A stretch of DNA of 64,000 bases from Lama guanicoe (Eukaryota): assembly GCA_013239625.1 (NCBI GenBank), contig MU055753.1, positions 3,768,153 through 3,832,152 on the forward strand, in the 5' to 3' direction. Position numbers and translations under genes: made by a program. Below the pieces are notes generated by a model. That model had not been told where the DNA came from. It was given only the letters and a program-made list of their open reading frames with translations, and ran no database searches. This document shows positions 43,172 to 49,352 of the stretch, in pieces; the stretch's first letter is position 1; each line of letters begins with the position of its first letter.

Positions 43172-44768
43172 ATGGCACCTGGGTTGCGACCACTTCTGCT
43201 GCTCGCGTTCTGGATGCTGGCGTCTTCCGCCCGTAGTCCCGCGGAGGCGAACGACGGAGGATGGTGAGCGGCGCTGGGCGGCCGGATAGAGCGGGGCGCG
43301 AGGCGGGACGGCCCGGGGCATTCACCGGTTGTGTCCGCAGGCCGCGGTATGGGCCGGGGGCACCGGTGGCCGTGGCGGAGGAGGAACGCTGCACGGTGGA
43401 GCGCCGAGTGGACCTCAGCTACGCCGAGTTCATGCAGCAGTATGTGCATCCTCCTGTGTGGCCACACCCAAGCCCGAAAACCATCCTTGGGGTTCCGTCA
43501 CCCTACACCGCTGAGGCCGTGCACTGGTCTGCTGGCCCGTAACCCCGTAACTCCCTAGGCTGCCTCTCCCAGAACTCATGCGAGCGCGCGTGGGCGGGAC
43601 GGTGGTAGGCGTGGACTAGCCCTGGCGGTGACCCTGCCCTTCTTTCTAGCTACGCCTTCTCCAGACCTGTCATTCTGCAAGGGCTCACAGACAACTCGGT
43701 GAGTGCTCACGCCTCTCTCGGCCACCTTTCGCCCTTGCTAGACCTGACCCCTAAGTCCTCTCCCTACTCCTGCAGAGGTTCCGGGTCCTGTGCTCCCGTG
43801 AAAGGCTACTGGCCTCTTTTGGGGACAGCGTGGTCCGGTTGAGTACTGCCAACACCTACTCCTACCGGAAAGGTGAGCTGCCCTACCCTGCAACCCAGCA
43901 TCGTGCTACCAGCACAAACCAGTCATGACCATCCCTTTTCACACTGCAGTGGATCTGCCCTTTCAGGAGTATGTGGAGCAGATGCTGCACCCTCAGGATC
44001 CCCTCTCCATGGGCAATGGTGAGCCAGATTAGGGTAGCATGGGATGATTTAGGATTGCCTAGGTGCCGAGATCCCTGCATTCTCCCATGTTCTCTCTGAC
44101 AGACACCCTGTACTTTTTCGGGGACAACAACTTCACTGAATGGGCATCACTCTTTCGGCACTACTCTCCACCTCCATTTGGTCTGCTAGGTACCACTCCT
44201 GCTTATAGCTTTGGAATTGCAGGTGAGTGTGCCTTTCAGGACCAGGAGACTTGGGGACTGGGCAGCCAGAGAGAAGGGGGAGAGGATTAAGCTTGGTAAC
44301 CAATTGTTCATAAATAACCCACAGGAGCCGGCTCTGGGGTGCCCTTCCACTGGCATGGTCCCGGGTTCTCGGAGGTGATCTACGGCCGCAAGGTCAGCAC
44401 AGGGTGGTGGCTGAGACTTTGGATTCACTGACCACAACACACAGAATAACCTTGCTGCTCCCATTCTCAGCGCTGGTTCCTGTACCCCCCTGAGAAGACA
44501 CCAGAGTTCCACCCCAACAAGACCACGCTGGCCTGGCTCCAGGACACATACCCGGCCTTGGCACCATCTGCACGGCCCCTGGAATGCACCATCCAGGCTG
44601 GTGAGGTCAGTGGCTGGCAGGCTGGAGCCAGGGTGGGCGCAACCAAGGGCCCCCAGCCAATCCCTGTGCCCTCCCATCCTCCACCAGGTGCTGTACTTCC
44701 CTGACCGGTGGTGGCATGCCACACTCAACCTCGACACCAGTGTCTTCATCTCTACCTTCCTCAGTTAG
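43172..44768 (+). CDS. JMJD8: JMJD8 JmjC-domain protein with signal peptide, 9 exons, about 269 aa (an in-frame upstream ATG exists at 43151)
   Basis: Exons 43172-43263, 43341-43439, 43650-43698, 43776-43872, 43950-44018, 44103-44222, 44325-44392, 44471-44605, 44688-44768 total 810 nt. Motifs GSGVPFHWHGPG, GRKRWFLYPP, GEVLYFPDRWWHATLNL. Confidence 0.95.
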
Positions 44769-45071
44769 CCAAAGGAAGGGGGTAGCTGGCGAACCTGTTG
44801 CACACCAGCACACGCCCCTATAGTGCTCACAGATTTTATTACAGGGACAGTGGTGGCAGCAGCAGCCTCAGCCCCTCACCCACTATTTCTGGTCTATAAG
44901 AGGGATGAGTGGAGACTCATGGCCCAGAACTGATGGGGGTGGGATGGGGACACCAGCGCAGAGATCCAGGGACATAAACTATGTACAGAGGCTAAAGGCT
45001 ACTGCCCTAAGGCCCTACTGTGCCAGGGTACCAGGCAAGGCAGGGTGAGTGACCCATGCATTTGCCCTGCC

Positions 45072-47007
<1,936 letters not shown>

Positions 47008-47163
47008 NNNNNNNNNNNNNNNNNNNNNNNNNNNNNNNNNNNNNNNNNNNNNNNNNNNNNNNNNNNNNNNNNNNNNNNNNNNNNNNNNNNNNNNNNNNNN
47101 NNNNNNNNNNNNNNNNNNNNNNNNNNNNNNNNNNNNNNNNNNNNNNNNNNNNNNNNNNNNNNN

Positions 47164-47442
47164 GGCCCGCCCTGCGCCCGCAGCCCGAGCCCGCGATCCG
47201 CTCGGGCCCGGCCCAGCACTCAGCCACCGGAACTTCCGGTCGCGCGGGTGGGCGGGGACAGAGGGGTGGGCGGGGCCGCGCGTGCACCCGAAGCACGTCG
47301 GAGGCGGGGCAGGCAGGGAGTACGCACTCAAAACAACACCACGCGCGGCATCTAAATCTGAGAAGCCCGGAGTTGGTCCTGACTGAATCCCGCCCGGGCG
47401 CTCCAACGCCGCACCTCCGAGGCCCCGCCTCGGCGCGTAGAC
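47164..47442. promoter_or_regulatory. Bidirectional CpG-island promoter between STUB1 (-) and the unnamed HhH gene (+)
   Basis: CpG-rich, with a palindromic ETS pair CCGGAACTTCCGG near 47227 and several GGGCGGGG boxes. The two genes diverge from it within a few hundred bp. Confidence 0.75.
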
Positions 47443-48611
47443 ATGGCGGAGTCCTGTGGGCTTTGGGACTGTGAGGACCCGAGCCGCTGGGCCGCTGTCC
47501 TGAAGCGCCACCCGGAGGTGCTGCGGACGCGCGCGGGCCCTCGGGGACGGTTGGAAGCCCTGGACAGATGGTAGGGCTGTGGAAGGATCGGGCGGGCGGG
47601 AGACTTTCTTTGTCCGGACTCCCCGTCACCGCCCTTCCCCAGGTATCGAGAGGAGTTGCCTGCGGCCATCAAGGGCCGAGTAGAGAAGCACGTGACACGA
47701 GATGACCTGGAGCAGTTGCTGGCGTGGAAACTGGCAGTGAGGCGCTTCCCACGTGGGGGGTGGAGTCTCCTCCAGGGGCGGGGCACAGCCTCGTGGGCGT
47801 GACTTCCTTCTGGGCGGGCCCTCCTCCTTGAGGTGGACCCTCGCGGCGTGGGCGTGGCTTCCTCCTGGGAGCCGAGACCCCGACGAGGTCTACCAACCCT
47901 GAACCCTGACACGACCTGGCCACAGAGGGGCCTTTTCCGGCCGCGCCTGCAGCAACTCGTGACCGTCAACTCCCCGGAGCTGGTGGTGCAGCGTTCGGCC
48001 GCCGCTTTCCGCCTCCTGCCAGACATGCATGCAGCGGTCATGGAATTGTGCGCTCTCCAGGGTGTGGGCCCCACTACTGCCTCGGGTTAGTCGGGAGACC
48101 TGGGCACGCCGGCGGGGTTTAGGGCGGGACCTGGCCTATTAGCGTCCTTATCTGTGAAGTTGCCTAACGGCTACGCACATGACACCACACCGAGATCATT
48201 GGTAAGGGTGGCCCCAGGCTGAGTCTGTCCTGGGACTGATGGGGCCTGAATGCTGGCCCTTCACTGCCCGCAGCGATCCTGGCTGCTGGAGCTCCCGAGG
48301 TGGCCGCTTTCATGTCTGAGGAGGCAGTGGCCGCAGTGCCTGGCTTGCCAGCCCTGCAGTACACTCTCAAGCACTATCTGCTGTACTTGGGCAGGGTGCA
48401 AGAGCGTGCCACAGCCCTGAGCCGAGGTGAGGAGACTGACGATGGTGGCCAGGGAGGGCATCCAGGACCCTGGTCAGGGTAGAGTGTGCACAGCTATCCA
48501 GCAGGGTAGGGTGGCCAGGGCCCCAGAGACCCAGACTCCCTCCGCTCCTCCCTAGGCAGGGCCTCAGGGCTGTGGACCCCTCACCACGTGGAGACAGCAC
48601 TGTGGACATAG
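47443..48611 (+). CDS. Unnamed helix-hairpin-helix, DNA-glycosylase-like protein (Amun/zgc:112496-like); 196 aa to the in-frame TAG, 232 aa if read to the TAA at 48719
   Basis: Strong Kozak gacATGG. Exons 47443-47570, 47643-47736, 47926-48085, 48274-48426, 48556 onward, all GT-AG with compatible phases. Peptide includes LEALDRWYREELP, LLAWKLARGLFRPRLQQLV, ELCALQGVGPTTASAIL, FMSEEA, LQYTLKHY, WTPHHVETALW. AATAAA at 48824-48829. Confidence 0.85.
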
Positions 48612-49352
48612 GCTATGGGGCAGAAGCTGTGCCCTGATCTACTGCCTGATCTCAGTCCCAGCCCAGCCACCCCCGACAACACCAGGCCAGCCAAGAAGCG
48701 CAGGACCCAGGCGGACTAACTTGGCTGTGGCCCAGAACCTGCTCACCTGCCATATGACCTTAGGCTGCAAGTGTCTCTGGACAGCAGGCTGGCAGAGCAG
48801 GAGGCTGGCTGCTGCAGAAGCTCAATAAATGCTTATTGTACTCACATGTGATCCTGAGGCCCACAACTCTCCCCAGGGGCTCCCACCTCCCACACAGAGG
48901 TACCTCCTGCCAGATGCAGAGGATCAAGGTGGGGGAGCCCATGCTGCCCACATGGAGGGAAGGGCCCTCACAATTTGTTTAGCCAGTGGGGAGAGCCCAG
49001 ATCAGCCCCCAAAGTACCAGTACAGGTCCCTGATGCTGTGTAAAATATTTATTCATTCTCCAAAAAGGCTCAGACTGCAACTCTTGGAGGAGAGGCTGGG
49101 CACAGTCTCCTCTGGGGCCACCCTTGGGGACCCCCAACACACAGCCCAGTCCAGCAGTCCTTCCCCCCAGGCCTGGGAGGGGGCAGCCAGGGCTGATGTA
49201 AGGCTTGGCCTGGACTTGGCCACTGGGGCCACCTGACCCCGCGGGGAAGAAGTAGCCTCCAGACGTACATTCACAGAGGGTGGACATGCAGACCTGCCTG
49301 GTGGCTGGCCCACAGATGCTGCACCCTGGCTATTGTGGCCCTGGGGATCCTG

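What the first reader, a model, noticed from the sequence alone, without database searches (positions are those of the whole stretch)
48556..48719. In-frame TAG in the last exon of the HhH gene cuts off an NLS-like tail: possible gene loss in progress
Seen: exon 5 reads ...VETALWT-TAG(48609-48611)-AMGQKLCPDLLPDLSPSPATPDNTRPAKKRRTQAD-TAA(48717-48719). The frame stays open for 35 more codons and ends in a classical monopartite NLS-like PAKKRR. Inference: the TAG is a TGG(Trp)-to-TAG nonsense change. Being in the last exon it should escape NMD and give a 196-aa protein without the NLS. It could be a lineage-specific truncation, a segregating allele, a readthrough site, or a base-call error.
Basis: partly seen in the sequence, partly recalled or inferred. 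Interest (0 to 1): 0.7.

Follow-up and report, generated by a model that had tools for sequence, protein, structure and literature searches.

The report
Camelids broke one gene twice
The premature stop is real, since an independent alpaca gene model ends at the same residue, and it cuts the last helix and basic tail off a conserved DNA-repair-like protein whose gene is broken by different mutations in Old World camels, so this is likely a dispensable gene being lost twice in camelids.

Summary
Observation confirmed: TAG 48609-48611, 35 open codons, TAA 48717-48719. The gene is single-copy, lies head-to-head with STUB1, and is the vertebrate zgc:112496/CG2446(Amun)-like HhH-GPD-fold gene. The window is a South American camelid. 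The RefSeq alpaca model XP_072798426.1 ends at the same residue and differs at G120S, so the stop is no assembly error. Trp stands here in 36 of 36 other placental rows, and camel-type RNA reads G at 48610. The stop removes more than the NLS-like tail: it falls inside predicted core helix 187-203, two residues after invariant E191/W195. New: Camelus lacks the TAG but has its own 2-nt exon-1 deletion (stop after codon 9) and a lost intron-1 donor. Best reading: two independent, recent inactivations. Whale, rhino, elephant and langur models also look damaged. Against: no protein-rate acceleration in camelids; fixation and loss of function are untested. This is ordinary gene loss in an unstudied gene family.

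The parts
46801..47442 (.). CpG-island stretch between the STUB1 5' end (minus strand; 47008-47163 reads N) and this gene's ATG; likely shared bidirectional promoter
   Evidence: GC 0.70-0.73, CpG obs/exp 0.74-0.97; STUB1 U-box exon 45275-45391, E 1e-15; promoter function inferred
47443..47570 (+). Exon 1 (ATG); intact here. In Camelus-type RNA a 2-nt deletion at 47470 gives a stop after codon 9
47571..47572 (+). Intron-1 donor GT; reads AT (G47571A) in Camelus-type RNA, where the intron is retained
   Evidence: X15, X18
47643..47736 (+). Exon 2
47926..48085 (+). Exon 3 with the helix-hairpin-helix motif; carries R77L and R119Q (all camelids) and A124T (Lamini)
   Evidence: Pfam HHH E 0.0045, below the curated cut-off
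48274..48426 (+). Exon 4, with the FMS(D/E)E motif whose position 143 is the inferred catalytic-Asp site (Glu in all artiodactyl rows); skipped in Camelus-type RNA
48556..48719 (+). Coding part of exon 5 of the ancestral gene
48609..48611 (+). Premature TAG (W197*), inside predicted helix 187-203
48612..48716 (+). 35 former codons: rest of helix 187-203, conserved L208, disordered linker and basic NLS-like cluster PAKKRR
   Evidence: NLS function inferred from motif only
48656..48826 (+). Alternative exon-5 acceptor downstream of the TAG, in another frame (RefSeq alpaca X1/X2; similar forms in pig and warthog); drops the whole last helix
48824..48829 (+). Poly(A) signal AATAAA; X18's contig ends at 48832

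Best explanation
A TGG>TAG change ends this single-copy HhH-GPD-fold gene at residue 196 in South American camelids and likely inactivates it, while Old World camels carry a different frameshift and splice-donor loss in the same gene, so the gene was likely lost twice independently after the two tribes split. Shown: the stop, its presence in a second alpaca haplotype, the ancestral Trp, the Camelus lesions and the absence of a second copy. Predicted: the stop cuts helix 187-203 two residues after invariant E191/W195, which by spacing match the base-binding Asp194/Trp198 of OGG2, and removes the basic tail. Inferred: the mRNA escapes junction-dependent NMD (last exon, about 210 nt to the poly(A) signal), gives an unstable or inactive 196-aa protein, and the locus stays transcribed from the STUB1 CpG island.
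For: RefSeq alpaca XP_072798426.1 is 196 aa, ends VETALWT and differs from the window at 1 of 196 residues. W197 stands in 36 of 36 other placental rows and 65 of 79 non-placental rows; the other 14 have M, F, S or L, none a gap. AF2 model of the pig orthologue (90-row alignment, pLDDT 87.7): helix 187-203, block means 93-95 over 191-210. Of 116 distant homologues with [LIVM]W at 194-195, 1 ends within one residue of it and 3 within seven. Camelus-type RNA: G48610 in 3 of 3 runs; 2-nt deletion and G47571A in 2 of the 2 runs that cover exon 1; introns 1-2 unspliced in the contigs; exon-4 skipping in 3 of 3. All 3 Camelus protein models lack the normal exon 1. Further changes hit near-invariant sites: A124T (A in 79 of 79), S127L (S in 79 of 79), R77L and R119Q (K/R in 77 and 79 of 79), G120S in RefSeq alpaca. 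Only one locus was found in the genome.
Against: No overall acceleration: the protein path from the artiodactyl ancestor is 0.083-0.099 for camelids against 0.11 for pig and 0.115 for cattle. Window versus camel: 10 non-synonymous changes in 515 sites against 23 in 759 synonymous plus intron sites, omega about 0.6, not different from neutral (Fisher p 0.28), and no matched intact-lineage baseline was available. Horse-donkey also differ at 4 of 189 residues, so the gene may simply evolve fast. E191/W195 survive in the 196-aa form; one distant homologue (P0369) ends at that Trp; shrews lack the basic tail. No Lamini RNA or protein was examined. Fixation across the four Lamini species is not shown.
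Confidence: 0.72

Rival explanations
1. The TAG is a common but still segregating null allele in South American camelids, not a fixed loss.
For: Only two haplotypes were read at the site (window, RefSeq alpaca).
Against: The two haplotypes differ at codon 120 yet share the stop, and A124T at an invariant site is shared too. X1-X3 hold all 153 sampled words, but may be the window's source.
Confidence: 0.12
2. The 196-aa protein keeps its function: the pocket residues remain and a protein of about 21 kDa can enter the nucleus without an NLS.
For: E191, L194 and W195 are retained. Sorex and Suncus lack the basic cluster. P0369 ends at the same Trp. RefSeq still annotates the locus as coding.
Against: The stop cuts a confidently predicted helix and L208 (L in 74 of 79). 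115 of 116 distant homologues run at least 7 residues further. The HhH hairpin region has also taken R119Q, A124T and G120S.
Confidence: 0.08
3. Function was already lost on the camelid stem (R77L, R119Q, or a promoter change), and both tribes' lesions are later decay of one loss.
For: R77L and R119Q are shared by all camelids and appear in none of 79 non-placental rows.
Against: No frameshift, stop or splice lesion is shared. The stem branch (0.071) is no longer than the suid (0.071) or ruminant (0.090) stems.
Confidence: 0.15
4. Readthrough or A-to-I editing restores Trp197.
For: The tail frame is open.
Against: An open tail is expected by chance (94-97%). The context is TAG-G, not the leaky UGA-CUAG (recalled). 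The region folds worse than shuffles (z +1.71), and none of 13 inverted repeats covers 48609-48611.
Confidence: 0.02
5. Assembly base-call error.
For: No raw reads of this individual could be laid.
Against: The same stop stands in a different haplotype.
Confidence: 0.01

Closest known systems
zgc:112496 / CG2446 (Drosophila Amun)-like family; cattle LOC516108; hedgehog gene named STUB1-DT
   Same: Direct orthologue by sequence: 566 hits at E<=1e-5, named zgc:112496, CG2446-like and STUB1-DT; 232-aa length; STUB1-RHBDL1 neighbourhood in the window.
   Different: Stops at residue 196. Insect members are about 450-560 aa. D. melanogaster Amun itself was not retrieved; the link rests on database names and a D. 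ficusphila homologue.
OGG2 8-oxoguanine DNA glycosylases (Thermotoga 3n0u, Sulfolobus 3fhg), HhH-GPD superfamily
   Same: Best fold match Z 10.5, rmsd 4.2, 167 aligned, also Foldseek rank 1 (E 0.052). HhH motif, acidic residue 19 after the Lys position, and E-x3-W in the last helix like Asp194/Trp198 (passages).
   Different: 15% identity. The catalytic-Lys position is Ala124; no sensor C-terminal Lys at the core end; no activity shown for any family member in what I read.
Lineage-specific (unitary) gene loss in mammals, e.g. OAS, PCSK9, KRT24 losses
   Same: Independent inactivating mutations in sister lineages of a single-copy gene (papers seen as search listing only).
   Different: This gene has no known function or phenotype in mammals, and the loss is recent, with little decay.

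Membership tests
zgc:112496/CG2446-like family | Full-length similarity to vertebrate members | tested here: met
   Exon 4 hits 38 proteins; the pig orthologue hits zgc:112496 and CG2446-named proteins at E 1e-60 or better; all five exons match the pig protein at 74-84%
zgc:112496/CG2446-like family | Complete last helix plus C-terminal extension | tested here: not met
   Stop at 197, inside helix 187-203
HhH-GPD glycosylase superfamily | HhH motif | tested here: met
   LxGVGP motif; Pfam HHH E 3e-4 (pig), 0.0045 (window exon 3), 0.051 (RefSeq alpaca); all below the curated cut-off
HhH-GPD glycosylase superfamily | Two-domain helical HhH-GPD fold | tested here: met
   Ranks 1-16 of the wide search are all base-excision glycosylases, best Z 10.5; tested on the pig orthologue's model, not the truncated form; Z is under 13 for a helical protein
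HhH-GPD glycosylase superfamily | Catalytic Asp after the HhH motif | tested here: inconclusive
   Position 143 is D in 79 of 79 non-placentals but E in all artiodactyl rows and the window; equivalence inferred from spacing, not from a residue-level superposition
OGG2 subfamily | Catalytic Lys in the HhH motif | tested here: not met
   Ala124 in 79 of 79 (Thr in the window); position assigned by motif spacing
OGG2 subfamily | Glycosylase activity on 8-oxoG | not testable with these tools
   Needs an assay
Unitary pseudogene (fixed gene loss) | Inactivating mutation in a gene intact in outgroups | tested here: met
Unitary pseudogene (fixed gene loss) | No intact paralogue | tested here: met
   5 matches, all exons of this locus, 10 of 10 candidates scored; the assembly may be incomplete
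Unitary pseudogene (fixed gene loss) | Fixation in the species or clade | tested here: inconclusive
Unitary pseudogene (fixed gene loss) | Neutral evolution after loss | tested here: inconclusive
   omega about 0.6, compatible with 1 (P 0.09) and above 0.2 (P 0.005), but no baseline; no branch acceleration
Programmed readthrough or editing site | Conserved stop with leaky context or duplex | tested here: not met
   Stop not conserved; no duplex

The most novel reading that the evidence does not exclude
The Amun/zgc:112496 family is an uncharacterised OGG2-like DNA glycosylase or lesion-binding protein of eukaryotes that placental mammals have discarded again and again (both camelid tribes, toothed whales, rhinos, elephant, primates). 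It survives as a noncoding transcript of the STUB1 bidirectional promoter (human STUB1-DT), and the artiodactyl-wide D143E change may have weakened it before those losses.
Probability: 0.3. Interest if true: 0.6.

Novelty: new member of a known kind. Interest (0 to 1): 0.33.

Why it matters
As a single stop codon it is ordinary. Its value is as a marker: two sister tribes broke the same deeply conserved glycosylase-fold gene in different ways, and several other placental lineages show damaged models. That pattern of keepers and losers would allow a phenotype-association scan and could give a protein-coding origin for human STUB1-DT. It also suggests that the RefSeq coding models in alpaca and camels are pseudogene artefacts.

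Tried and rejected
Two pattern scans of metagenome contigs found 0. The single-sequence fold of the 196-aa alpaca protein was uninformative (pLDDT 46.5) and is not comparable with the 90-row model. Sequence searches of PDB gave nothing below E 0.14; Foldseek gave no E<=0.001. The search for longer homologues returned 71 proteins, none named Amun. The original Amun paper was not held. Earlier findings of the scan: none. The finless-porpoise model was left out because it aligns out of frame. Rejected: base-call error, readthrough/editing, rescue by a paralogue, rescue by the downstream acceptor (it loses the whole last helix).

Full report
Observation. The five-exon model (47443-47570, 47643-47736, 47926-48085, 48274-48426, 48556-48719) has canonical GT-AG ends and 699 nt. 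It reads 196 codons, TAG at 48609-48611, 35 open codons ending PAKKRRTQAD, and TAA at 48717-48719, with AATAAA at 48824. The gene faces away from STUB1 (U-box exon, E 1e-15) across a CpG island and ends tail-to-tail with a rhomboid gene (weak Pfam hit, E 0.001; read as RHBDL1 from recalled synteny). The genome has 2.05 Gb, and the pig protein finds only these five exons in it.

Identity. Exon 4 is 100% identical to a Vicugna pacos protein and 98% to a dromedary one, so the window is a South American camelid; the species was not determined. Orthologues of 232 aa exist in pig, hippo, ruminants, equids, fruit and horseshoe bats, beaver and manatee. Database names are zgc:112496, CG2446-like, LOC516108 and, in hedgehog, STUB1-DT. 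The family is wide: 3050 representatives at E<=0.001, with insect and plant members. Amun is described as a nuclear protein with a glycosylase domain that acts in Notch signalling and co-purifies with Rad50 (passages of 10.1101/2025.04.04.647281 and PMC13076223; the original paper was not held). That CG2446 is Amun is recalled. The cattle gene appears as a co-expression hub in fat tissue, with no function given (passages of PMC9682410).

Is the stop real and derived? RefSeq alpaca isoform X3 is 196 aa, ends VETALWT, and differs from the window only at G120S, so a second haplotype has the stop. Trp stands at 197 in 36 of 36 other placental rows, the three Camelus species included, and in 65 of 79 non-placental rows. 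Among the 120 listed hits the column has W in 104, at least one by misalignment of an alternative isoform. Three RNA runs from three studies read G at 48610. Their other differences match the Camelus proteins (G167C, V190M, N220D, A231V; R62L as in the Bactrian model), so they are camel-type.

What the stop removes. The AlphaFold model of the pig orthologue (pLDDT 87.7, pTM 0.83) has a last helix at 187-203 and disorder only from 214. The stop therefore takes seven helix residues, conserved L208 and the basic tail. The fold is HhH-GPD: ranks 1-16 of the wide search are base-excision glycosylases, best OGG2 3n0u at Z 10.5, rmsd 4.2, 167 aligned; Foldseek agrees weakly. In OGG2, Asp194 and Trp198 of the last helix bind the base (passages of PMC3397491). 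The invariant E191 and W195 have the same spacing; this equivalence is my inference. Of 146 distant homologues, 116 align at this Trp; one ends on it and the rest run at least 7 residues further. The basic cluster is widely kept (K225 in 109 of 120) but is missing in two shrews, so losing it alone may be tolerated.

The camel side. In the two RNA runs that cover exon 1 there is a 2-nt deletion at 47470 and a G>A change at the intron-1 donor. The deletion gives a stop after codon 9. Contigs run unspliced through introns 1 and 2. An exon 3 to exon 5 joint is seen in 3 of 3 runs and an exon 4 to exon 5 joint in 2 of 3; contigs drop rare forms, so normal splicing is not excluded. All three Camelus protein models avoid the normal exon 1. 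The window has none of these lesions and camels lack the TAG, so no inactivating lesion is shared. The tribes split roughly 16-25 million years ago (recalled; two searches gave taxonomy, not this date).

Selection. At 80 columns conserved in 79 non-placentals (positions 44 and above), horse, zebra, bats and beaver break one (Q45R, general in placentals), pig, hippo, cattle and sheep two, the full-length camelid rows four, toothed whales five to nine, and rhino, elephant and langur models four to seventeen. R77L and R119Q are shared by all camelids; A124T is Lamini; S127L is Camelus. Against long decay, camelid branches are not longer than pig or cattle, and the distance to horse is alike (40-41 against 38 of 189). 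Between window and camel, omega is about 0.6 on 16 changes (two of them taken from protein models), which fits neutrality but lacks a matched baseline. I read this as recent loss.

Other mammals. Toothed-whale models start upstream without the usual start and carry changes in the HhH helix; rhino, elephant and douc langur models look patched around breaks. These are protein models only; I saw no DNA. STUB1-DT is listed as a human gene without an Entrez id in one table (PMC12519442, one passage); that it is a lncRNA is recalled.

Print. Searches for Amun/CG2446/glycosylase, gene names (27), camelid gene loss (53), Amun with ortholog and pseudogene (60, 0 papers) and unitary pseudogene with STUB1 (69, 0 papers) showed no report of this loss. 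Genome-wide gene-loss tables in supplements were not read and may list it.

Verdict. The stop is real and derived and most likely makes a null allele; it is one of two parallel camelid inactivations. Lineage-specific gene loss is a known kind of event, and RefSeq already holds the 196-aa model without comment. Interest is modest and comes from the repeated loss of an unstudied glycosylase-fold gene.

Noticed in passing
window 48274-48426 (codon 143) and orthologues: The inferred catalytic Asp143 (D in 79 of 79 non-placentals, and in horse, bats, beaver, sirenians) is Glu in every artiodactyl row and His in white rhino and elephant models.
   Followed up: partly
window 47470 and 47571: Camelus-type RNA has its own frameshift and donor loss, retains introns 1-2 and skips exon 4.
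   Followed up: yes
window 48656: An out-of-frame downstream acceptor in exon 5 is used in RefSeq alpaca models, and similar forms exist in pig and warthog, so it predates the stop.
   Followed up: partly
proteins P0011, P0037, P0031-P0033, P0198: Warthog, dugong and toothed-whale models each lack one residue at the exon 3/4 junction, as if the acceptor had shifted by three bases more than once.
   Followed up: no
proteins P0027, P0204, P0093: Shrews, and partly hedgehog, have lost the basic C-terminal cluster while keeping the core.
   Followed up: partly
window 44471-45100: A JmjC-like gene on the plus strand (read as JMJD8 from recalled synteny; no Pfam hit for the exon tested) ends very close to, or overlapping, the STUB1 3' end; TTTATT at 44835 would be STUB1's poly(A) signal.
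   Followed up: no
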